Positions 10,079-44,423 of a DNA stretch of 64,000 nucleotides are shown one piece after another; position 1 is the stretch's first letter; each line of letters begins with the position of its first letter. Both the position numbers and the translations under genes were made by a program. The notes beneath the pieces were generated by a model. It was not told the DNA's origin and did no database searches. It saw only the letters and a program-made list of their open reading frames with translations. Origin of the DNA: an uncultured Clostridia bacterium (GTDB lineage Bacteria; Bacillota; Clostridia; Christensenellales; UBA1242); NCBI GenBank assembly GCA_934747965.1, contig CAKVHI010000003.1:7025-71024 (forward strand), written 5' to 3'.

Positions 10079-10594
10079 AAGAAACAAGATACATTAAAAT
10101 TCAAGTGATATTGCAAACATAATTTATAAAACAAGTAAATCTTTTCATTATATAAAGTTTAATGTTTTATTACTATGCAAAAATATTTAGTAATTTGTTA
10201 TTTATGTTTTATACCAAATTATAAAAAATTTTAATATAGATTATAAAAAATTTAAAAAGTTATAAATTTTTGTTAAATATTTACCTTTTTATTCGCAAAA
10301 TCTGTATTTTGCGAATAGTTTTATAAATCAATTTTTTAATTCTCTACTCTACTATTCACAATTTTTATAATAAATTATCTAAAAATTATGTTATTCATTC
10401 CAAAAAAATAGGTATTAACCACAAAAATTTCAAACTTGTTAATCAACCATTGAAAGCGTATTTTTTGTGTCTGTAGAGCTATAAAGCTTCTGTCATACAT
10501 TTTGTCCAACCTGTTTAATTTACCAAACCACTGTATATAGTTAGTTAAAAATCAAAATTCAAAATATTGAGTTTAAATTATTTTAACTTTCCTT

Positions 10595-16183: not shown

Positions 16184-17185
16184 TTATTTACACAATTTAA
16201 CGCCAATCGCATCTTTAACCTTTTCTAAGGTTTCCTTTGCAACTTTTCTGGCTTTTTCTGCCCCGATTTTAAATATTTCGTCAACTAATTGTCTGTTGGC
16301 TTGATAGTAGTCATATTTTTCTCTCATAGGAGTTAAAACTTTGTTCATAGCATTAAATAATTCTTTTTTTGCATCCCCCCAACTCATGCCACCTAAAAGT
16401 TTGTTGCAATATTCTTCATAACCTTTTTCATTTGAAAACAATTTAAAAAGTTTGCACAAAGTGTTGTCTGTGTCTTTAGGTTCGCCCGGAAGCCTTGAAT
16501 CAGTAACAATTTTGTTTACGGTCTTTTGAAGTTGCTTTTCACTGCAAAACAATTCAATGGTATTTTTATAACTTTTGCTCATTTTTCTGCCGTCTAACCC
16601 AACAATTTGACAAGTTTCATCTTCTACAACACTTTCAGGAAGAGTAAAGACTTTGCCGTATCTGTTGTTAAAACTGTTAGCTATATCTCGAGCAATCTCA
16701 ACATGTTGAGTTTGGTCTATTCCAACAGGAATTTTCTTTGCGTTAAATAGCAAAATATCAGCTGCCATAAGGATAGGATAATTATACAAGCCCATATTAA
16801 CACCAATATCTTTATCTTGACCTTCAGCTTCATTTTTTTCAACAATAGCCTTGTATGCGTGAGCCCTATTCATTAAACCTTTGCTTGTTAAGTTGCACAA
16901 AATCCAAAAAAGTTCACAATCTTCACTTACATCACTTTGCTTAAAAAAAACAACTTTATTTGGGTCTATTCCACAAGCAAGCCATGTGCAAGCAATGTTA
17001 TATGTGTTTTCAATCATTTCTTGTTTGGTTTTTACTGTGGTCAAAGCATGATAATCAGCAATAAAGTAATAACATTCAAAATCATTACTGCTATTTGCAA
17101 AATCAACTGCCTGTTTAATTGCACCAAAATAATTACCAATATGAGCAATACCTGTTGGTTTTATGCCTGTCAAAACTCTCTCCAT
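16184..17185 (-). CDS. trpS: Tryptophanyl-tRNA synthetase
   Basis: HIGH-type motif TGIAHIGNYFGA and KMSKS; 333 aa. Confidence 0.95.
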   Translation of the reverse strand: MERVLTGIKPTGIAHIGNYFGAIKQAVDFANSSNDFECYYFIADYHALTTVKTKQEMIENTYNIACTWLACGIDPNKVVFFKQSDVSEDCELFWILCNLTSKGLMNRAHAYKAIVEKNEAEGQDKDIGVNMGLYNYPILMAADILLFNAKKIPVGIDQTQHVEIARDIANSFNNRYGKVFTLPESVVEDETCQIVGLDGRKMSKSYKNTIELFCSEKQLQKTVNKIVTDSRLPGEPKDTDNTLCKLFKLFSNEKGYEEYCNKLLGGMSWGDAKKELFNAMNKVLTPMREKYDYYQANRQLVDEIFKIGAEKARKVAKETLEKVKDAIGVKLCK

Positions 17186-17376: not shown

Positions 17377-17826
17377 TTATATAATATTAATCAATTTTTC
17401 ATAAACACTTTCAGCATCCATATTTGTTTCTGTGATGCACATAACAGTGTCATCGCCATAAACAGTACCCATAAGATTTTCTATATTCATTTTGTCTATG
17501 TAACTTGAAATTCCGCCAGCAAAGCCTTTAAGAGTTTTTACAACCACAAGGTTTTGAGCAGTTTTTACAGATATAACAACTTCTTTATATATACCCACAA
17601 CTTTGTTAGAGATTTGTTGCTTTTCAGTTTCTACATAAGCATATTTATATTTTTTGCTGTCAGACATAATCTTGATTAAACCAAGTTCTTTTATATCTCT
17701 TGAAACTGTTGCCTGAGTTACATCATAATTTAATGCACGCAAAGCATTCACAAGTTCATCTTGCGTTTCTATTTCATTTTTTGCAATAATTTCTAAAATC
17801 TTACTTTGCCTTAAAGACCTAGCCAT
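17377..17826 (-). CDS. argR: Arginine repressor
   Basis: RQSKILEIIAKNEIETQDELV...TQATVSRDIKELGL wHTH and a C-terminal GTVYGDDTVMC oligomerisation/arginine-binding motif. Start moved to MARSLRQ, which is preceded by SD AAAGGAGAAA. Confidence 0.9.
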   Translation of the reverse strand: MARSLRQSKILEIIAKNEIETQDELVNALRALNYDVTQATVSRDIKELGLIKIMSDSKKYKYAYVETEKQQISNKVVGIYKEVVISVKTAQNLVVVKTLKGFAGGISSYIDKMNIENLMGTVYGDDTVMCITETNMDAESVYEKLINII

Positions 17827-17846
17827 AAATTTCTCCTTTGCAAGTA

Positions 17847-17973
17847 TTGAATAATTATGTAAATTATTATACAACGCTTTTTATTTTTATGCAAGTGTTT
17901 TTGAATATTTATGCAAAAAATTTTTTATATTTATTCAAAAAATTGAATATTGGTTGTGAATATTTATACAAAC
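17847..17973. promoter_or_regulatory. Cluster of ARG-box-like sites around the argR promoter
   Basis: TTGAATAATTATGTAA (17847), TTGAATATTTATGCAA (17901), ATTCAAAAAATTGAAT (17933) and GTGAATATTTATACAA (17956), versus the ARG-box core TGAAT-N4-ATTCA. Confidence 0.6.
17866..17894 (-). promoter_or_regulatory. argR promoter TTGCAT-N17-TATAAT
   Basis: Hexamers read on the minus strand. Confidence 0.65.
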
Positions 17974-18120
17974 ACAACATATTGTGTTGTAAAAAGAGTG
18001 CATAATACTACATATTGTGATTAAAATTTTAAATAAAAAAGAGAATTTTTAAACAAATCCCCTTACATTTATAAATTTATGAATTTTTTTGAAAATTTAA
18101 GAACAAAACTTAAGCCAAAA

Positions 18121-18738
18121 TTACTTTGTTTCACCATTATTTTCTTTTTTGTCTTTGTCTTTCTTTTTAGATTTATCAGATTTTTTTATTTTAAAGAAAC
18201 TTAAAAATTTTCCTACCCTTAAAATTATTTGGTCAGAATTGTTTACCGCTACCCCCTTAAAAATTGCCTTTCCAAAAACGGTTAGCGAGGTAACAACACT
18301 GCTGACAAGCGCAGGAATTAATATTGCCAAAAATCCACTTTCACCTGAATAAATAAAAACTGCCAAACTAGCACCAACAGCACCCGATAATATTCCACAA
18401 CTATCGCCAACTATATCGCAACAAAAACTCGAGATTTTTTCTGCATTTTTTATTAATTTTATACTTTCCTTTGCACCATTTTCTTTTTTTGAAGCCCTTG
18501 CCAAAAATGGCTCAATGTTTCCAGCGGTAACTGCAACACCTATCATATCAAACAAAATTGATATCCCGACAAAAACAATCAAAATTAAAATAGAAATAAT
18601 AAGTCCAACACCAGAAAGCACTGCCTCACTTGAAATGTTAAGCACCAAACTTAATGAAAGTGTTATCAGCAACACCCTAATTGGATAAGCCCATGCAATT
18701 TTGGTTTTTTTCGGCTTAGATTCTTTTTCTTCTTTCAT
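18121..18738 (-). CDS. oapA: Four-TM membrane protein, candidate OLE-associated protein OapA
   Basis: 205 aa with four hydrophobic helices, a conserved-looking cytoplasmic loop (PFLARASKKENGAKESIKLIKNAEKISSFCCDIVGD) and a lysine-rich tail. It lies immediately downstream of the long ncRNA and upstream of argR. Confidence 0.5.
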   Translation of the reverse strand: MKEEKESKPKKTKIAWAYPIRVLLITLSLSLVLNISSEAVLSGVGLIISILILIVFVGISILFDMIGVAVTAGNIEPFLARASKKENGAKESIKLIKNAEKISSFCCDIVGDSCGILSGAVGASLAVFIYSGESGFLAILIPALVSSVVTSLTVFGKAIFKGVAVNNSDQIILRVGKFLSFFKIKKSDKSKKKDKDKKENNGETK

Positions 18739-18785
18739 TTCCTTTCGACCTTTTTATTTTAGATAAATTATTAATATAAAAAAAA

Positions 18786-19307
18786 TTAGAGAAAATCTTT
18801 TGAGTAAACCTTGCAACTTAGGTTCGGTTGGATTTCCCCACTAAACACACACCGTCGCCGAATGTGTCATTTCTGCTTTGGTTTAGCGCCATAAGGTACC
18901 GAATTGCCACTTAGATTACACTATAATCCCCAAAAGATATTCTGCCTAGAAGATTTCCTTAACACAAAAATTGTTTAACTAGTCTATTTTGCAAACAATG
19001 TTTCAAACATTATGTATTATCCGCAATTATTCACTCAAAACAGGCTACTCTGTACATAGCTTTTTGTTCGCCACATAGCAGGTTTAATCCCGATTAGTAG
19101 TTAATTTGTCATTATCCACCTTTCAGGTCTCCACGATAATTGGGTCGGGTATTATATGCCGTTATAATGCGCCCAAAAATCTTAACTTCCAGCATCTGCC
19201 CCAGTTTGGGCAACCAAAGCAAACACCAGAAACTTCATCGATATGCCCTTCAACGCTATTAATCGTTTTCATTAAAGTTTTTGCGACTAGGATACAGTTT
19301 CTCTAAC
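18786..19307 (-). ncRNA. Long (~520 nt) structured noncoding RNA, candidate OLE RNA
   Basis: The 616-bp gap has no minus-strand ORF of 60 aa or more and is visibly more GC-rich than other spacers. It has its own consensus promoter and ends at a T8 tract (18778-18785). Its position between xseB and a 4-TM protein gene matches OLE/oapA synteny. Confidence 0.55.
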
Positions 19308-19313
19308 AACATA

Positions 19314-19342
19314 ATTATATCATATACAATATTTTTATGCAA
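19314..19342 (-). promoter_or_regulatory. Promoter TTGCAT-N17-(TGa)TATAAT driving the long ncRNA
   Basis: Hexamers read on the minus strand, just downstream of the xseB stop. Confidence 0.65.
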
Positions 19343-19354
19343 GAGGTTTCTAAA

Positions 19355-28895: not shown

Positions 28896-29839
28896 TTAAG
28901 ATATTCCTTTGCTTTTTCAATAATTTTTTTCTTTACACTGTTTTTGTTGCCATAAATTTTGCACCCAGAAGCAAATTTATGTCCTCCACCGCCAAAAAGA
29001 CGGGCAAAATTACAAACATCAGTATTTGCACTTCTAAACGAAACCCTAAACACGCCTTCTTTTTCTTCACAAATTACGCAAATAATTTTGTAGTTTTCAA
29101 GCCCAGATAACGAAAAAATAATGCATGGTGTATAGTCTATTTCAACATCGTACTTTTGTAAATCTTTTTGCAAAATATAGGTTAATGCCAAACTATTGTC
29201 AAAAAAACTTTCAAGCCTTTGTATTGTTTCTGCTGTTAATTTTAATTGATTTAATTTCTTTTCCCTAAACAATGTGTAATTAATTTTTTCTATCTCTTCA
29301 TTTATATCCTTACAAAGGTTTTCAGCAACCTCATATAAGTTGTTTGTTATGTTATACAAAAAACACCCACTATCCGTTGCTAAACCCGTGTAAAGCGAAA
29401 TTTTAATGCTTTTTGTGAAATTTATTTTTAATTCTTTTAAAAAATAATACAATATTTCACATGTAGAGCTTGCATCACTATTAACAACCTGAAATTTAGT
29501 AAAATTTTCATTATTTAAATGATGGTCAATATTTATGATATTTTCGCAATTTTTTAATACTTTTTCCATCGTGCCTATTCGTTTAATTTCACCACAATCA
29601 AGCACAAAGGCTAGGTCATATTTTTTGTTTTGACACTCAGTTTTTATTTCATCAGTTTTCAAAAACCACAAACGGTCGCCAATTTCGTCTTGAGAAAATA
29701 CATCAACATTTTTTCCAAGTTGTTCCAAAGCTTCTTTAAGTGCCAAACTAGACCCTATAGCATCGCCATCTGGATTAATATGAAAAAATATTGCAATATT
29801 TTTTGATTTTTCAATTAAAGTTTTAATCTCTTTTGTCAT
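28883..29839 (-). CDS. nrnA: DHH/DHHA1 phosphoesterase, NrnA-like oligoribonuclease/pAp phosphatase
   Basis: HINPDGDAIGS, NIDHH and GGGGHKFASG motifs. Confidence 0.85.
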   Translation of the reverse strand: MTKEIKTLIEKSKNIAIFFHINPDGDAIGSSLALKEALEQLGKNVDVFSQDEIGDRLWFLKTDEIKTECQNKKYDLAFVLDCGEIKRIGTMEKVLKNCENIINIDHHLNNENFTKFQVVNSDASSTCEILYYFLKELKINFTKSIKISLYTGLATDSGCFLYNITNNLYEVAENLCKDINEEIEKINYTLFREKKLNQLKLTAETIQRLESFFDNSLALTYILQKDLQKYDVEIDYTPCIIFSLSGLENYKIICVICEEKEGVFRVSFRSANTDVCNFARLFGGGGHKFASGCKIYGNKNSVKKKIIEKAKEYLKCTE

Positions 29840-30176
29840 TATTAAGCCCTTTTAAAAGTTCATTTATGCGGTTTTCATTATTTATTCCTTCATCCAAAGA
29901 AAAAACAAGTTCTGGAGTTATCCTTAATTTAACATTTTTAGCAATTTCACGCCTTAAAAACGGAATGCTATTTTTTATTATATTAAAACTCATCTCTTTT
30001 TTGTCATCAGGGAAAATGCTTAATTTTATTTTTGCATGGCTTAAATCTGGTGAAGTATCAACATCAAGAACAGACACAAAAACTCCTTGCAATCTTGGAT
30101 CAGAAAGTTTAAAAGATATAAGTTTTGATAATTCTTTTTGAATTTCACTGTTTATTTTTAAAATTCGATTTGACAT
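29823..30176 (-). CDS. rbfA: Ribosome-binding factor A
   Basis: 117 aa; RILKINSEIQKELSKLI and its position after infB. Confidence 0.9.
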   Translation of the reverse strand: MSNRILKINSEIQKELSKLISFKLSDPRLQGVFVSVLDVDTSPDLSHAKIKLSIFPDDKKEMSFNIIKNSIPFLRREIAKNVKLRITPELVFSLDEGINNENRINELLKGLNNDKRD

Positions 30177-30186
30177 AACACCACCT

Positions 30187-32598
30187 CTAAAAAACTACTC
30201 TTTCCAAATTATATGCACTAATTTTGTCGCCAACTTCAAATTTTTCAAAGCCCTCAAGCTTGATACCACATTCAAAAGTTACACCAACTTCTTTAACATC
30301 ATCCTTTTTGATTTTCAAACTTTCAAGTTTATATGCTCCAATTTCTTCGCCATTACGAATAACCTTACACAATGCCCCTCTTTGAATTTTCCCATCAAGA
30401 ACGATGCTTCCAGCAACAATGCCAATTCCAGTAATTTTGTACACCATTCTAACTTCAGCAGAGCCTGTATAAATTTCGTTAAATTTAGGTGCAAACATAC
30501 TCTTCATTTTATTTGTTAAATAGTCTATAACATCATAAATAATTTTTGAATAATAAACTTCGATTTTTTCTTTTTCGATAATATCTCTTGCCTTGTTATC
30601 TGTTTTTGTGTTGAAGCAAATAATAACCGAATTTGTTGTTTTTGCAAGATTTGCATCAGTTTCATTAACATTACCAACAGAGCTTGAAATAACATTAACT
30701 TTAACTTCTTCACTTTGAATAGCCAAAACACTTTGTTTTAGTGCTTCACTAGAGCCCTGAACATCGGCTTTTATGATAACATTTAATTGCTTTTTCATAT
30801 TGTCTTCGGCTTTATGGAACAAATCTTCTGCCGAAACGCCAGATGAATTAGAAATTCTTTCTCGTTTCAAATTTGTTTTTCTTTCTTCAATTAGTTGTTT
30901 AGACATTTTTTCATCAACAACATAGGCTTTATCCCCTGCTTGAGGCACTGCATCCAAACCTAAAACCGATATAGGCATACTTGGTCCAGCAGATTTAACA
31001 TTTTTACCATTTTCATCAATCATTGCTCTTATTCTTCCAAGTGCAAGACCAACAACCATAGTATCTCCAACATGAAGCGTTCCGTTTTGAATAAGAATTG
31101 TTGCAACCGGACCTTTACCTTTGTCTAGTTTAGATTCAATAACAGAGCCTGTTGCTTTTTGAGTTGGATCGGCTTTTAAATCTAACACATCGGCTTGTAA
31201 CAAAACCATCTCAAGCAATTTATCAATATTTTGATTTTGCTTAGCACTTATTGGCACCATAATTGTATCTCCGCCCCATTCATCGCTCAAAACATCATGG
31301 TCAGCAAGTTGTTGTTTTACTTTTTCTATGTTTGCAGTTGGTTTATCAATTTTGTTAATTGCAACAACCATTGGAACATTTGCATTTTTTATGTGTTTAA
31401 TTGCTTCCAAAGTTTGAGGCATCAATCCGTCATCTGCCGCAACAACCAAAATAGCAACATCTGTAATATTTGCACCACGCTCACGCATTGCCGTGAAAGC
31501 AGCATGACCCGGAGTGTCAATAAAAGTTATCATTCTATTGTTAATCTTAACTGTATAGGCTCCGATATGTTGTGTTATACCGCCCGCTTCTCCGCTTATA
31601 ACATTTGTTTTTCTTATTGCATCCAAAAGAGAGGTTTTGCCGTGGTCAACATGGCCCATAACCGTAACAACTGGTGCACGCCTAACCAAATTACCCTCAA
31701 CGGTTTCTCCGACCATTTTGCTTAATTTTTCCTCAAAAGTTTCAGGTTTTTTATATTCAAGACTAACTCCAAGTTCACTGCAAACAAGTTCAGCCGTGTC
31801 AAAATCAATAGAGCTGTTAATAGTGCTCATAATGCCCAAAATGAATAATTTTTTAACAATTTCAGCAACTGGTTTACCAATTTTTTCACTCAAATCTTTA
31901 ACACTTATGGTTTCAGTATCCATAACGGCTTTATCAATAACAGAAATCACTTGTTGTTGCACTTTTTCTTTCTTAGTTTTAACTCTTCTATATTTTACGC
32001 TTTCGCTTTCATTAAGGTCATCATTAATCAAACTCATTTTAAATTGAGCTTTTTTATTCAATGTCTTTTTCTCTTGAGTTTGTTCAACAGGTTTTTTCTT
32101 AATTCTTGTTCGTTCTTTTTCTTTTAAGTCAATAAGGGGTTCAACAAAACTTGGCTTTCCAAAAGGTTTTTGACCAGATTTAACAAAAGGTCTTTGTGAA
32201 TTATTTTTATTGAAAGGACGATCTCCATTAGGTTTGTCTTGCTTGATAAATGGTTTGCCAAAATTACGCTTATCATTATCAAAACGCCTTTCTCCGTTAA
32301 AAGGTCTGTTTGTTCTGTCAAAAGGTCTTTTAACTTCCTTTTGTTGTTCTTTTTCGGTTCTTTGTTGTTGTAAAATAGCCTTTTGTCTTTCTTTTTCTTG
32401 TTTTTCCGCTTCTTTTGCTTCTTCAAGTTGTGCAACCTTTAAAGAATTAAATTTTTCCGCAAGTTTTCCACAAAAAATATCCAAACTGTCTTTGGCTTTT
32501 CTAAGTTCGGCTATACTTTTATCAACAACTTTGTCTTGTCTTAAATTTTCCAAATTTTTGATGTTTTCAATTTTGTTGTTTTCTTCTTTATTTATCAT
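30187..32598 (-). CDS. infB: Translation initiation factor IF-2
   Basis: GTPase motifs [17 protein letters not shown] and NKID, with a long basic N-terminal region. Confidence 0.97.
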
Positions 32599-32599
32599 A

Positions 32600-32851
32600 C
32601 TACCCCTTAAATTCTTCTAGTTTCTCATACACTTCATTATTAACGTTGCTTTTAAACACTTTGTTAATTAGTTTATTTTTTATTACTTTGTTTATGCATT
32701 CAACATCTTTGCAAATATAACAACTTCTTCCATTTTGTGGTGTATCATCAATCAAAATTTTGTTAGAAGTGCTTTTAGTTATTTTTATTAAATTTGTTTT
32801 TGTTTTGTCAAACTTTTGTCTGCAAGCAATACAAGTTCTAATATTTTTCAT
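32600..32851 (-). CDS. ylxR: YlxR/RnpM family RNA-binding protein (DUF448)
   Basis: RTCIACRQKFDKTKTNLIKI motif, between nusA and infB. Start set at MKNIRTC. Confidence 0.85.
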   Translation of the reverse strand: MKNIRTCIACRQKFDKTKTNLIKITKSTSNKILIDDTPQNGRSCYICKDVECINKVIKNKLINKVFKSNVNNEVYEKLEEFKG

Positions 32852-32852
32852 A

Positions 32853-33959
32853 CTAATCCTTAAACATATCATCTAAATCTGTTGGCAAATCTTCAAAAGT
32901 ATTAACTATAGGTTTTTCTTCCTTACTGCTTTCAGCCTTAACATCAATTTTAATGCCAACCAATCTTGCTGCAAGTCTAACATTAATTCCGCCCGCACCA
33001 ATCGCTAAAGATAATTTATCATCAGGAACGATTGCTCTTGTAGTTTTTTCATCAACAAAACTAACGGAATTAACTTTTCCTGGGCTCAATGCTCTTGCAA
33101 CAAACACAAGCGGGTCATCAGACCATAAAATAATATCAATTTTTTCGCCATTAAGTTCATTAACAATAGAATTGATTCTCATTCCTCTGTTACCAACACA
33201 AGCACCAACAGCATCAATGTTTTCATTAGAAGAATAAACTGCAATTTTTGTTCTTTGACCAGCTTCACGGCTAATGCTTTTTATTTCAACTTCACCATTT
33301 TGGATTTCTGGCACCTCAAGTTCAAACAATTTTCTTACAAAACCAGTATTTGCTCTTGAAACTTGAACAACAGGAGATTTCACATCATCTTCTCTAATTT
33401 TTTTCACATAAACTTTAATTTTTGTGTTAATATAATATTTTTCGCCTTTAATTTGGTCATTTTCTCCCATTACAGCTTCCAAACCATTGTTTCCAATTTC
33501 AACAAAAACATTTTTATTTTCAATTCTTCTAACAATGCCTGTAACAATCTCATCTTCTTTTTCAGTTATTTCGCCAATCATTCGTTCTCTTTCAAGTTCA
33601 CGAAGTTTTTGCATAACAACTTGTTTTGCTGTTTGTGCTGCAATTCTTCCAAAGTCTTTTGGAGTTTCTTCTTTTTCAACTAAGTCGCCAATCTTATAAG
33701 ATTTTTTTATAAGTCTTGCATCTTCCAAACTAATTTCTTTATCTGGATCTTCAACCACTTCTTTAACTTCTTTATAAGAATAAACCCTAATAGTGTTTTT
33801 TTCGGGATTCAATTTTACGCTTGCAAGTTTTGCTTCTCCTATGTGTTTTTTATAGGCACTTGTAAGTGCAGTTTCCAAAGCCTTAACAAAACTTTCCTTG
33901 CTTATTTTTCTTTCTCTTTCCAAATCATCTAGTGCTTGAAAAAAATCTTTACTTATCAT
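32853..33959 (-). CDS. nusA: Transcription termination/antitermination factor NusA
   Basis: NTD, S1 and two KH domains (GACVGNRGMRINSIVNEL, LAIGAGGINVRLAARL). Confidence 0.97.
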   Translation of the reverse strand: MISKDFFQALDDLERERKISKESFVKALETALTSAYKKHIGEAKLASVKLNPEKNTIRVYSYKEVKEVVEDPDKEISLEDARLIKKSYKIGDLVEKEETPKDFGRIAAQTAKQVVMQKLRELERERMIGEITEKEDEIVTGIVRRIENKNVFVEIGNNGLEAVMGENDQIKGEKYYINTKIKVYVKKIREDDVKSPVVQVSRANTGFVRKLFELEVPEIQNGEVEIKSISREAGQRTKIAVYSSNENIDAVGACVGNRGMRINSIVNELNGEKIDIILWSDDPLVFVARALSPGKVNSVSFVDEKTTRAIVPDDKLSLAIGAGGINVRLAARLVGIKIDVKAESSKEEKPIVNTFEDLPTDLDDMFKD

Positions 33960-33973
33960 TCTATAGTTCTCCT

Positions 33974-34423
33974 TTAAAACTTAATATAAGGCATTGCCTT
34001 TAAATTCTTCGTAATTTTTACTGTTTTTGTTGTGTTTTTTATTTTAAGTTTGACCTCATCATCAAAAACATCCAACACAGTCGCAACTTGTTTTTTGTTG
34101 TCAACAAAAATTTCAATTTCTTTGCCTAAAAACCTTTCAAAATCTCGCTTAACCAAAATAGGTCTGTCTAGCCCCAAACTAGAAACATTAAGACTATAAC
34201 TTAAATCACAGGTAGGATTAAGTTCATCTAATGGTTCATCCAAGGCCTTAGAAACAGTTTTGCAGTCGTCAAAAGTTATTCCTTTATCGTTGTAGATAAC
34301 AATAGTAATATAGCGTTCGCCTTCCACTTCTTCATACTTTGCTTCAACAAATTCATAACCCAAATTTTCAACAATAGGTTTGCAAAGATTTGAAACATCC
34401 TCTATTATTTTTTGTTTGTTCAT
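33974..34423 (-). CDS. rimP: Ribosome maturation factor RimP
   Basis: 149 aa; GYEFVEAKYEEVEGERYITIVI..., just upstream of nusA. Confidence 0.9.
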   Translation of the reverse strand: MNKQKIIEDVSNLCKPIVENLGYEFVEAKYEEVEGERYITIVIYNDKGITFDDCKTVSKALDEPLDELNPTCDLSYSLNVSSLGLDRPILVKRDFERFLGKEIEIFVDNKKQVATVLDVFDDEVKLKIKNTTKTVKITKNLKAMPYIKF

Positions 34424-44094: not shown

Positions 44095-44423
44095 CTACTT
44101 AGTTTTCATATTTTTTATAATATTCAAAACACTTTCCTTTGACTCTTCACTCATGTTTTTTATTAGAGTATATAATTCATTATCTTTTTCATAAGTTTGA
44201 TAATTATTAGAAAAAAATTGTTCTTTAGAGATACCAAATTCATTTATCATTTTATAAACAACTGTTATTGGCATAACAAACCCTTTTGATTTATATAACT
44301 TGAGTGTTTATTCAATCTTAAGCTTAATTCTCTTGCACTAAGTTTTAATTTATTTCTAAAATAATATTCACGCAATGCAATATCTTTAATTATTTCTAAA
44401 TCTTCTTTTTCTTCTAAGTTCAT
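44095..44423 (-). pseudogene. Frameshifted XRE-family helix-turn-helix regulator
   Basis: My own translation gives MNLEEKEDLEIIKDIALREYYFRNKLKLSARELSLRLNKHSSYINQKG, which stops at 44265. The +1 frame continues FVMPITVVYKMINEFGISKEQFF...MKTK*. The break falls inside the HTH at an A4G3 run. Total length is 329 nt, not a multiple of 3. Confidence 0.6.

What the first reader, a model, noticed from the sequence alone, without database searches (positions are those of the whole stretch)
18121..19342. Promoter-driven ~520-nt noncoding RNA plus 4-TM protein in the OLE RNA/oapA position
The 616-bp space between xseB and the next gene is the longest ORF-free stretch on the coding strand in this compact window. 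It is clearly more GC-rich than the other spacers. It has a near-perfect promoter (TTGCAT-N17-TGaTATAAT, 19314-19342) and ends at a T8 run just before the SD of a 205-aa four-TM protein, which is followed by argR. In Bacillus halodurans and many anaerobic Firmicutes, the OLE (ornate, large, extremophilic) RNA and its membrane partner OapA sit in this same nusB-xseA-xseB-(ispA)-OLE-oapA-(dxs)-argR-recN neighbourhood. Two things are unusual here. The isoprenoid genes ispA and dxs that normally flank OLE are absent, and the RNA appears to have its own strong promoter.
Basis: partly seen in the sequence, partly recalled or inferred. Interest (0 to 1): 0.7.

Follow-up and report, generated by a model that had tools for sequence, protein, structure and literature searches.

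The report
Known OLE RNA with its OapA partner
The long gene-free stretch is a copy of OLE RNA, a large bacterial noncoding RNA first described in 2006, followed by the gene for its membrane partner OapA; this copy is a trimmed-down version, but the missing isoprenoid genes and the RNA's own promoter are normal for this RNA family.

Summary
The 616-bp spacer between xseB and the 205-aa ORF encodes an OLE RNA (Rfam RF01071, 332 bits against a cutoff of 50, E 6.5e-94, full model). The ORF is OapA: it has four TM helices, an invariant DxxxD motif and a CNNM/CorB-like fold, and it lies directly downstream of ole.

An OLE-proximal promoter was shown experimentally in B. halodurans (Wallace 2012). 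I find a TG-extended -10 at the same place in 68 of 78 related loci. The layout xseB-OLE-oapA-argR without ispA or dxs occurs in every close relative whose flanks are present. In 33 of 62 OLE loci with full flanks, neither gene is adjacent.

The RNA itself is a reduced form (about 521 nt from P1 to P1). It lacks the P13 hairpin that docks OapB, the distal P9 element carrying the self-complementary kissing loop (one of three dimer bridges in the cryo-EM structure), and a small hairpin. It is still the most conserved segment of the locus. This fits the published "variant 1" OLE of reduced-genome gut Clostridia.

Verdict: a known element, low novelty, with modest value as a natural minimal OLE.

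The parts
19314..19342 (-). Dedicated sigma-A-type promoter of ole: -35 TTGCAT (19342-19337), 17-nt spacer with TG at 19322-19321, -10 TATAAT (19319-19314). The predicted start is near G19307.
   Evidence: Read from the sequence. The same TTGcat/TTGaca-N17-TGnTATAAT arrangement sits at a fixed distance 5' of P1 in 68 of 78 related loci, against 4.9% of shuffles. A functional proximal promoter has been shown in B. halodurans (PMC3413148). The start site is inferred, not measured.
18786..19306 (-). OLE RNA from P1 to P1 (521 nt). The Rfam hit is slightly wider (18773-19319) because the model includes flanking sequence.
   Evidence: Rfam RF01071: 332.2 bits, E 6.5e-94, model positions 1-616. RNAalifold on 25 homologues gives 142 pairs, 96 with compensatory changes. 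The RNA is 92.8% and 84.2% identical to L001 and L002, higher than any flanking gene.
19298..19306 (-). P1 5' strand, UUAGAGAAA. It pairs with 18794-18786.
   Evidence: 9 bp read from the sequence. The pairing is kept by compensatory changes in relatives: GAAGGUG/UACCUUC, GGCGGCG/CGCCGCC, AUGGCGC/UUGCCAU.
19252..19267 (-). 5'-proximal hairpin AACG-AUUAAUAG-CGUU (Rfam model positions 54-73). It corresponds to the loop that forms A-A inter-chain pairs (L4) in the C. acetobutylicum dimer. Here the loop is not an A-run and contains the self-complementary word AUUAAU.
   Evidence: cmscan alignment, alignment A2 and PMC12286853. The match to L4 is my inference from the model consensus CUAAAAAU.
19179..19239 (-). 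P5/P5.1 long hairpin (19232-19186) with flanking GAUGAAG and UUAAGAU, the nucleotides that form the OapC-binding k-turn in B. halodurans. They match the family consensus here.
   Evidence: cmscan alignment: GAUGAAGUUUCUGG...CUGGAAGUUAAGAU against consensus GAUGAAGuUcCugG...CUgGgAgUUAAGG. The k-turn location is from PMC9723947. The C-G pair at A2 columns 89/129 is present.
19006..19018 (-). Stub that replaces the distal P9 element: 4 bp AAUA/UGUU capped by CAUAA. The 39-61 nt element with the self-complementary kissing loop found in all 22 other homologues is deleted.
   Evidence: cmscan shows 44 model nt replaced by 5. A2 columns ~357-425 are empty only in WIN, L001 and L002. Palindrome survey. 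L9.3 kissing loop as dimer bridge B3 (PMC12286853).
18889..18896 (-). Vestige of P13 (CC-UUAU-GG) directly after the P12.2 5' strand (18903-18898). It has no GNRA tetraloop and no bulged nucleotide, so the primary OapB docking site is absent.
   Evidence: cmscan shows 15 nt replaced by 2. Segment comparison and A2 columns 566-597. The vestige differs among WIN, L001 and L002. OapB site definition from PMC7936274.
18847..18867 (-). P14.1 hairpin with a GCGA tetraloop (18858-18855), retained. This is the weak secondary OapB site in B. halodurans.
   Evidence: PMC7936274.
18786..18794 (-). P1 3' strand, UUUCUCUAA.
18778..18785 (-). U8 tract directly abutting the P1 3' strand. It is probably a 3'-end or partial-termination signal with read-through into oapA.
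   Evidence: Sequence. A run of at least 6 U at the same position occurs in all 13 loci with OapA at least 55% identical, window included. No separate GC-rich terminator hairpin was found. The function is inferred.
18121..18738 (-). oapA, encoding the 205-aa OLE-associated membrane protein A. The DxxxD motif (D108-D112) is encoded at 18417-18403.
   Evidence: Pfam CNNM at 30 bits, just above the cutoff. DxxxD is invariant in 31 homologues. AF2 model with TM helices 17-43, 46-72, 99-129 and 136-166 plus a basic C-terminal helix. The top six Foldseek hits are CorB/CorC CNNM TM domains, including 7M1U. An OLE gene lies directly upstream of the homologue in 84 of 87 loci.
17377..17826 (-). argR, the conserved downstream neighbour of oapA in this lineage. 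Context only; it is not shown to be part of the RNP.
   Evidence: Pfam and NCBIfam. Conserved position in relatives. ArgR is named as a candidate OLE partner, as unpublished lab data, in PMC12265935.

Best explanation
This is the ole-oapA locus of an uncultured, low-GC (29.7%), spore-forming gut Clostridia lineage. NCBI labels a close relative Christensenellales.

Shown here: the spacer encodes an OLE RNA, and the gene after it encodes OapA.

Inferred from sequence: a TG-extended sigma-A promoter starts transcription about 1-3 nt before the P1 helix. The RNA runs about 521-530 nt to a U8 tract that abuts the 3' strand of P1. Some transcripts probably read through into oapA, which has no promoter of its own in the 39-nt gap before its ATG.

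Inferred by homology to H. halodurans and C. acetobutylicum: the RNA folds into the conserved OLE architecture, is tethered to the membrane by OapA dimers, and acts as a stress-adaptation ribonucleoprotein (alcohol, cold, Mg2+, poor carbon sources). Its chemical function is still unknown in the field.

This copy is a reduced OLE. It has lost the P13 hairpin (primary OapB site), the distal P9 element with the kissing loop (dimer bridge B3), and a small hairpin before the GGGGAUUAUAGUG motif. It keeps the core, the k-turn nucleotides and P14.1. This matches the text description of 'variant 1' OLE from reduced-genome gut Clostridia.
For: RNA identity: Rfam OLE at 332 bits over the full model, the only Rfam hit in 64 kb. 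An independent RNAalifold run gives 142 pairs, 96 with compensatory changes, including P1.

Conservation: OLE is the most conserved segment of the locus, at 92.8% and 84.2% identity, against 61-87% for the flanking genes and 52-74% at their synonymous third positions.

OapA: DxxxD is invariant. The model has four TM helices. The fold matches CorB/CorC, including 7M1U, the published top match for H. halodurans OapA (PMC11332333). Pfam CNNM scores just above its cutoff, as published for OapA.

Linkage: OLE lies directly upstream of the oapA homologue in 84 of 87 loci and in 10 of 10 by Rfam.

Promoter: conserved in position in 68 of 78 loci, and a proximal OLE promoter is experimentally established.

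Reduced architecture: compared with the published variants.
Against: There are no expression data for this organism, so the start site, the 3' end and read-through into oapA are all inferred.

P1 is AU-rich (9 bp, 2 G-C pairs), so a terminator role for P1 plus U8 is weak. The terminator scan found nothing.

The single-sequence fold is only modestly better than shuffles (z = -2.2). Support for the structure comes from the covariance model and covariation, not from thermodynamics.

Assignment to 'variant 1' rests on the paper's text. I could not view the figure, and my helix numbers for P7-P11 come from counting helices.

I could not establish whether the host lineage is TANB77.

Only 64 kb is available, so I could not test whether the genome encodes OapB, OapC or MpfA.
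Confidence: 0.95

Rival explanations
1. The conserved RNA is mainly a long structured 5' leader that controls oapA expression in cis, like a riboswitch or attenuator, and is not a stable trans-acting RNP component.
For: oapA begins 39 nt after the U8 tract and no promoter was found in between, so oapA must be transcribed through OLE. A P1-plus-U-tract arrangement could work as a conditional terminator. The U-tract is conserved in the window's wider clade.
Against: In B. halodurans, OLE is a discrete, very stable and abundant RNA that binds OapA, OapB and OapC and is required in trans-complementation experiments (PMC3413148; PMC9723947). The RNA forms an ordered homodimer on its own (PMC12286853). 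Many relatives have no U-tract, or have a separate hairpin terminator, so attenuation is not a family-wide property. Co-transcription and a stable processed RNA can both be true.
Confidence: 0.04
2. The RNA is a decaying remnant of OLE in a reduced genome. The lost P13, distal P9 and small hairpin mark erosion, and the element no longer functions.
For: Three peripheral elements are missing. The P13 vestige differs among the three closest relatives, as expected for unconstrained sequence. Reduced-genome clades largely lack OapB and OapC (PMC11332333).
Against: P1 to P1, the RNA is the most conserved segment of the locus: 92.8% and 84.2% identity against 52-74% at synonymous sites of neighbouring genes. 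P1 and the internal helices keep pairing through compensatory changes. The promoter is conserved. oapA is intact with an invariant DxxxD. The Rfam score is still 332 bits.
Confidence: 0.01

Closest known systems
OLE RNA (Rfam RF01071) of Halalkalibacterium (Bacillus) halodurans and Clostridium acetobutylicum
   Same: The covariance model matches over its full length. The invariant core motifs are the same. The P1 closing helix is present. The k-turn-forming nucleotides flanking P5 are present. The P12.2/P14/P14.1/P15 junction is present. oapA lies immediately downstream. There is a proximal promoter whose start lies at the foot of P1, as mapped in B. halodurans.
   Different: The RNA is about 521 nt from P1 to P1, against 577 nt in C. 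acetobutylicum and about 610-630 nt in H. halodurans. It has no P13 GNRA hairpin or bulge, which is the OapB site. It has no distal P9 element, so there is no L9.3 kissing loop, which is dimer bridge B3. It lacks a small hairpin (Rfam model positions 429-440). The L4-equivalent loop is AUUAAUAG and not an A-run. The flanking genes are xseB and argR, not ispA and dxs.
'Variant 1' OLE RNA of reduced-genome gut Clostridia (TANB77 clade; Fernando & Breaker 2024, PMC11332333)
   Same: The published text describes shorter P7, P8 and P9 stems and frequent loss of the OapB-binding nucleotides at the tip of P13, in uncultured gut organisms with reduced genomes. The window RNA has the P13 loss and a truncated P9. 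Its P7 and P8 equivalents are shorter than those of the Oscillospiraceae-type RNAs. Its relatives are gut-metagenome MAGs.
   Different: I could not view the variant-1 consensus figure or confirm that the host belongs to TANB77. P13 is lost in all compact-layout relatives aligned (17 of the 19 non-subclade sequences in A2 that lack a GNRA P13; L029 keeps a long P13 without a GNRA loop). Loss of the distal P9 element and the small hairpin is restricted to the window's own subclade (WIN, L001-L004). The window RNA may therefore be a further-reduced tip within that trend.
OapA (OLE-associated protein A) and the CNNM/CorB/MpfA Mg2+ transporter TM domain
   Same: It is a small protein with four TM helices and a DxxxD motif in TM3. 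It is encoded directly 3' of ole. It gives a weak Pfam CNNM match, and its best structural matches are MtCorB (7M1T, 7M1U) and CorC (7CFF, 7CFG). This is the same pattern published for H. halodurans OapA.
   Different: Unlike CNNM/MpfA proteins it has no CBS-pair or CorC_HlyC domains; it is a TM domain plus a basic C-terminal tail. No characterised OapA sequence was available for direct alignment, so similarity to H. halodurans OapA is established only through shared hallmarks.

Membership tests
OLE RNA (RF01071) | Covariance-model score above Rfam's gathering threshold over most of the model | tested here: met
   332.2 bits against 50, E 6.5e-94, model positions 1-616, not truncated.
OLE RNA (RF01071) | Conserved multi-helix secondary structure supported by covariation, including the P1 helix that joins the 5' and 3' ends | tested here: met
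   RNAalifold on 25 homologues: 142 pairs, 96 with compensatory double changes. P1 pairs show GC/AU/UA/CG exchanges. Window P1 is UUAGAGAAA/UUUCUCUAA.
OLE RNA (RF01071) | oapA gene immediately downstream | tested here: met
   oapA starts 47 nt after P1. The same adjacency holds in 84 of 87 related loci.
OLE RNA (RF01071) | Host is an anaerobic or extremophilic member of Bacillota | tested here: met
   The window carries spoIIIA, spoVA and other sporulation genes. Relatives are Clostridia/Christensenellales gut MAGs. Anaerobiosis is inferred from the gut origin.
OLE RNA, full-length form | P13 hairpin with GNRA tetraloop and single-nucleotide bulge (primary OapB site) | tested here: not met
   Only CC-UUAU-GG remains (18896-18889). 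15 model nt are replaced by 2. Site definition from PMC7936274.
OLE RNA, full-length form | Distal P9 element with a self-complementary loop (L9.3 kissing loop, dimer bridge B3) | tested here: not met
   44 model nt are replaced by 5. All 22 other homologues have a GC-containing palindrome at the same offset, and WIN and L001 have none. The equation with P9.3/L9.3 is inferred from PMC12286853.
OLE RNA, full-length form | k-turn-forming nucleotides flanking P5 (OapC site) | tested here: met
   The sequence matches the consensus on both flanks, and the C-G pair next to the bulge is present (PMC9723947). OapC binding itself was not tested.
OLE RNA | Membrane localisation, RNP formation and stress phenotypes | not testable with these tools
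   These need experiments in the organism or in a heterologous host.
OLE variant 1 (Fernando & Breaker 2024) | Shorter P7, P8 and P9, and missing OapB-binding nucleotides at the tip of P13 | tested here: inconclusive
   P13 loss and P9 truncation are clear. The P7 and P8 equivalents are about 22 and 16 nt shorter than in Oscillospiraceae-type OLE but similar to other relatives. The helix numbering was inferred and the consensus figure was not available.
OLE variant 1 (Fernando & Breaker 2024) | Host in the GTDB TANB77 clade, with OapB and OapC largely absent from the genome | not testable with these tools
   No GTDB taxonomy is available. Supplement and literature look-ups found nothing. Only 64 kb of the genome is in hand, and 10 small ORFs scanned showed no L7Ae or KOW protein.
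OapA | DxxxD motif | tested here: met
   D108-I-V-G-D112, invariant in 31 homologues. Described as a distinctive OapA feature in PMC11332333.
OapA | Four transmembrane helices, with no cytosolic CBS or CorC domains | tested here: met
   The AF2 model has helices 17-43, 46-72, 99-129 and 136-166. Three of the four stand out on the hydropathy profile; the DxxxD helix is less hydrophobic. The protein is 205 aa and CNNM is its only Pfam match.
OapA | Distant CNNM-domain similarity (weak Pfam hit, CorB-like fold) | tested here: met
   PF01595 at 30.0 bits against a cutoff of 28.4. The top six Foldseek hits are 7M1T, 7M1U, 7CFF and 7CFG, with probability 0.98-1.0 and TMq 0.38-0.53.
OapA | Lacks the conserved proline typical of CNNM domains | not tested
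   I did not map the CNNM proline onto this protein. It has prolines at positions 9, 19, 77 and 142.
OapA | Binds OLE RNA at 2:1 and localises it to the membrane | not testable with these tools
   Biochemical property.

The most novel reading that the evidence does not exclude
The window's subclade carries a naturally minimised OLE ribonucleoprotein. The RNA has lost the OapB docking hairpin (P13), one of the three RNA-RNA dimer bridges seen by cryo-EM (the self-complementary L9.3 kissing loop) and a small hairpin. It is nevertheless the most strongly conserved sequence in the locus.

If the particle still does the same job, then OapB docking at P13 and bridge B3 are dispensable for the core function. 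Dimerisation would have to rely on the remaining bridges. The L4-equivalent loop may have been rewired, since in the window it contains the self-complementary word AUUAAU in place of an A-run. Such an RNA would be a ready-made minimal construct for structural and functional work on an RNA whose chemistry is still unknown.
Probability: 0.4. Interest if true: 0.35.

Novelty: already known. Interest (0 to 1): 0.15.

Why it matters
It matters little as a discovery. OLE RNA, OapA, the proximal promoter and reduced OLE variants in gut Clostridia are all published, and any Rfam-based annotation would label this locus.

Its modest value is comparative, in three ways.

First, it shows that the link between OLE and the isoprenoid genes ispA and dxs is lineage-specific. 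In this sample the link is confined to loci with OapA 39-50% identical to the window's (mostly Oscillospiraceae-type MAGs), while the ole-oapA pair is close to invariant. ArgR, which the Breaker laboratory mentions as a candidate partner, stays adjacent in the compact layout.

Second, the varying but always self-complementary loop word in the distal P9 element (GGCC, GACGUC, UGCGCA, UGUACA, GGGCCC and others) is sequence-level support for the kissing-loop dimer bridge seen by cryo-EM.

Third, the complete loss of that element in a subclade where the RNA is still under strong constraint marks it as non-essential.

Tried and rejected
- Protein-coding reading of the spacer: rejected. There are 12-19 stops per frame and the longest open stretch is 46 codons. 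The 66-aa plus-strand ORF at 19106-19306 is spurious and lies inside the RNA.
- Consensus promoter and terminator scan: it missed the real promoter because the -35 matches only 3 of 6 positions, and it found no terminator. I therefore assessed the promoter by conservation instead.
- NCBIfam scan of the 205-aa protein: no family.
- PDB sequence search with the OapA profile: no hit even at E up to 1. A fold search was needed.
- Direct alignment to characterised H. halodurans OapA: not possible.
- Assigning the lineage to TANB77: the supplement of PMC11332333 and the literature on Ca. Onthoplasma gave nothing.
- Looking for OapB or OapC in the window: 10 small ORFs showed no KOW or L7Ae protein. 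The rimP-nusA-ylxR-infB operon lacks the L7Ae gene ylxQ. This says nothing about the rest of the genome.
- My first regex extraction of the P12.2-P15 segment mis-anchored in many loci. I checked its conclusions against the MAFFT alignment.
- Single-sequence folding is only weakly better than shuffles (z = -2.2), so I did not use it as evidence.
Full report
**Observation.**
The xseB stop codon is at 19357-19355 and the next ORF starts at 18738. That leaves a 616-bp spacer (18739-19354), the longest intergenic stretch in the window. All three minus-strand frames are closed, with 12-19 stops and a longest open stretch of 46 codons. GC content is 35.1% for the spacer and 38.5% for the RNA proper, against 14-26% for nearly all other spacers.

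The promoter elements are at the stated positions: TTGCAT at 19342-19337, a 17-nt spacer with TG at 19322-19321, and TATAAT at 19319-19314. The -35 matches the TTGACA consensus at only 3 of 6 positions, which is why the consensus scan missed it. The T8 run is at 18785-18778.

The surrounding genes are all on the minus strand: the spoIIIA genes, Asp23, nusB, xseA, xseB, the spacer, the 205-aa ORF, argR and trpS.

**Identity of the RNA.**
The Rfam scan of the whole window gives a single hit. It is OLE (RF01071) at 18773-19319 on the minus strand, with 332.2 bits against a gathering score of 50, E 6.5e-94, and model positions 1-616 untruncated.

To check this independently of Rfam, I collected 87 loci that encode relatives of the 205-aa protein. 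A sequence profile finds OLE directly upstream of that gene in 84 of them. At least two of the three exceptions (L064, L081) are cut off by a contig end. Rfam confirms OLE in 10 of 10 loci tested.

RNAalifold on 25 of these RNAs predicts 142 pairs, and 96 of them have compensatory double changes. These include the P1 helix that joins the two ends. In the window, P1 is UUAGAGAAA (19306-19298) paired with UUUCUCUAA (18794-18786). Relatives have GAAGGUG/UACCUUC, GGCGGCG/CGCCGCC or AUGGCGC/UUGCCAU.

**Identity of the protein.**
The ORF only just passes Pfam CNNM (30.0 bits against 28.4) and has no NCBIfam match. That is the published behaviour of OapA, which clusters as the next-closest group to MpfA in CNNM HMM scores (PMC11332333).

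The distinctive DxxxD motif is present (D108-IVG-D112) and invariant in 31 homologues. An AlphaFold2 model (pLDDT 77, pTM 0.65) shows four long helices at 17-43, 46-72, 99-129 and 136-166, followed by a basic C-terminal helix.

The top six PDB fold matches are all CNNM/CorB/CorC transmembrane domains: 7M1T, 7M1U, 7CFF and 7CFG. 7M1U is the entry reported as the top match for H. halodurans OapA.

No characterised OapA sequence was available, so I could not make a direct alignment. Membership rests on these hallmarks and on the near-invariant position 3' of ole.

**The two 'unusual' features.**
[quoted passage not shown] Expression depends on it more than 100-fold, and the 5' ends map near the start of P1 (PMC3413148; PMC9723947).

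I anchored all loci on the invariant AGUAUYCUAGUC motif. A TG-extended -10 lies 10-35 nt upstream of the anchor in 68 of 78 loci, against 4.9% of shuffled controls. This includes 15 of 19 loci that have ispA upstream. The promoter is real, but it is a family trait.

*Missing ispA and dxs.* Pfam confirmed which flanking gene clusters are Dxs, IspA, TlyA and NadK. Every locus with OapA at least 53% identical to the window's lacks both ispA and dxs. Those with the flanks present have xseB-OLE-oapA-argR.

Of 62 loci with full flanks, 15 have the compact layout, 29 have dxs downstream and 33 have neither gene adjacent. The 29 with dxs have OapA identities of 39-50%, are mostly Oscillospiraceae-type, and have a median OLE length of 654 nt.

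Neither gene occurs anywhere in the 64-kb window. The layout is lineage-wide. Whether these genomes encode the pathway elsewhere could not be tested.

**What is particular about this copy.**
The RNA is short: 521 nt from P1 to P1. The Rfam hit spans 547 nt, against 579-678 nt in the seven more distant relatives with full-length Rfam hits. The alignment locates three deletions.

(a) The P13 hairpin is reduced to CC-UUAU-GG (18896-18889). In B. halodurans, its GNRA tetraloop and single bulged nucleotide form the primary OapB site (PMC7936274). This loss is shared with all compact-layout relatives aligned. The vestige differs among the three closest relatives. The P14.1 GCGA loop, a weak second OapB site, is retained.

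(b) The distal part of the long stem after GAGUGA...GGAUA is replaced by a 4-bp stub with loop CAUAA (19018-19006). Only the window's subclade (WIN, L001-L004) has this deletion. In all 22 other aligned RNAs this element carries a GC-containing self-complementary word at the same offset. The word varies between lineages: GGCC, GACGUC, AGGCCU, UGCGCA, AGCGCU, CGCGCG, UGUACA and GGGCCC. Palindromy that is kept while the sequence changes is what a homodimeric kissing loop predicts. The cryo-EM dimer of C. acetobutylicum OLE has such a bridge at L9.3 (PMC12286853). The window RNA cannot form it.

(c) A small hairpin (Rfam model positions 429-440) is also absent from the subclade.

The k-turn nucleotides flanking P5, which form the OapC site, match the consensus.

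**Is the reduced RNA functional?**
From P1 to P1 the RNA is 92.8% identical to L001 and 84.2% identical to L002. The flanking coding genes are 72-87% and 61-75% identical, and their synonymous third positions are 59-74% and 52-64% identical. The RNA is therefore the most constrained sequence in the locus. The promoter and oapA are intact. A decaying remnant is very unlikely.

**Relation to published variants.**
Fernando and Breaker (2024) describe 'variant 1' OLE, most common in the TANB77 clade of uncultured gut bacteria with reduced genomes. It has shorter P7, P8 and P9 and often lacks the OapB-binding nucleotides at the tip of P13. Those clades largely lack OapB and OapC.

The window RNA fits that description. 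There are two caveats. My helix numbers beyond P6 were obtained by counting helices and cross-checking against text statements. I also could not confirm that the host is TANB77. NCBI labels a member of the 86%-identical OapA cluster as Christensenellales, and other look-ups failed.

**Mechanism (shown versus inferred).**
*Shown:* the OLE fold, the OapA hallmarks, the conserved promoter position, the conserved U-tract abutting P1 in the wider clade, and strong constraint on the RNA.

*Inferred from sequence:* transcription starts near 19307. The 3' end lies in the U8 tract. Some transcripts read through into oapA, since no promoter was found in the 39-nt gap and no terminator hairpin was found either.

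*Inferred by homology:* the RNA dimerises, is tethered to the membrane through OapA, and has a role in stress adaptation. The biochemical function of OLE is unknown in the field, and nothing here changes that.

**Verdict.**
It is a known RNA-protein pair in a known type of reduced form, and neither flagged oddity is odd. Interest is low. The residual value lies in using this subclade as a natural minimal OLE, and in the sequence-level support for the kissing-loop dimer bridge.

Noticed in passing
L009-L087 and L005 (alignment A2 columns ~385-400); absent from window 19006-19018: The loop of the distal P9 element of OLE carries a self-complementary word in all 22 aligned RNAs outside the window subclade. 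The word differs between lineages (GGCC, GACGUC, UGCGCA, AGCGCU, CGCGCG, UGUACA, GGGCCC). Palindromy is conserved while the sequence varies, which independently supports the L9.3 kissing-loop dimer bridge seen by cryo-EM. In L002 the shortened loop is itself the palindrome GAAUAUUC.
   Followed up: partly
window 19256-19263 (minus strand): The loop equivalent to L4, which forms four inter-chain A-A pairs in the C. acetobutylicum OLE dimer, is AUUAAUAG here and in L001. It contains the self-complementary hexamer AUUAAU in place of the consensus A-run. L002 has AAUAAUGG. This could be a rewired dimer contact or just AT-rich drift.
   Followed up: no
window 17839-18111 (oapA-argR spacer): This AT-rich (19% GC) 246-bp spacer holds several copies and inverted copies of a TGAATATTTATGCAAA-like 16-22-mer that overlap a TTGCAT-N17-TATAAT promoter. 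They resemble ARG boxes (from my own knowledge of the ArgR/AhrC operator consensus), suggesting that argR regulates itself. The review PMC12265935 mentions ArgR as a candidate OLE partner (unpublished), and argR stays next to oapA in the compact layout.
   Followed up: partly
window 44095-44423 (minus strand): Two overlapping short ORFs (52 aa and 59 aa) in different frames fill most of a 490-bp 'spacer'. The first reads like an XRE-type helix-turn-helix (…LSARELSLRLNKHSSYINQ…). They may be one small regulator gene split by a frameshift, or an assembly error.
   Followed up: no
window 10079-10594: This is the second-longest spacer (516 bp, 19% GC), lying between convergent genes. It has no Rfam hit and no ORF longer than 45 aa. 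Its content is unexplained.
   Followed up: no
window 29823-34423 (minus strand): The rimP-nusA-ylxR-infB-rbfA operon lacks the L7Ae-family gene ylxQ, which in Bacillus subtilis (from memory) lies between ylxR and infB. Here ylxR ends at 32600 and infB starts at 32598. This may be relevant because the OLE partner OapC is an L7Ae-family k-turn binder.
   Followed up: no
window 1-64000: The 64-kb window has no tRNA genes (ARAGORN) and no Rfam family other than OLE at gathering threshold. There is no T-box upstream of trpS (16184-17185), which follows argR after a 191-bp spacer.
   Followed up: partly
L001 19141-20097; L002 16983-17912; L003 14616-15545: The closest relatives carry a gene with a CD_NTase_C domain (PF26305) next to serS, a few kb beyond the ABC transporter downstream of the ole locus. 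I did not check whether the window has the equivalent gene.
   Followed up: no
L024, L015, L017, L016, L033, L026, L009, L083 (3' flank of OLE): In these relatives, P1 is followed by a separate canonical hairpin-plus-U terminator. The window's clade instead has a U-tract directly abutting P1, and I saw neither feature in most of the Oscillospiraceae-type loci. The way the OLE 3' end is made appears to differ between lineages.
   Followed up: partly
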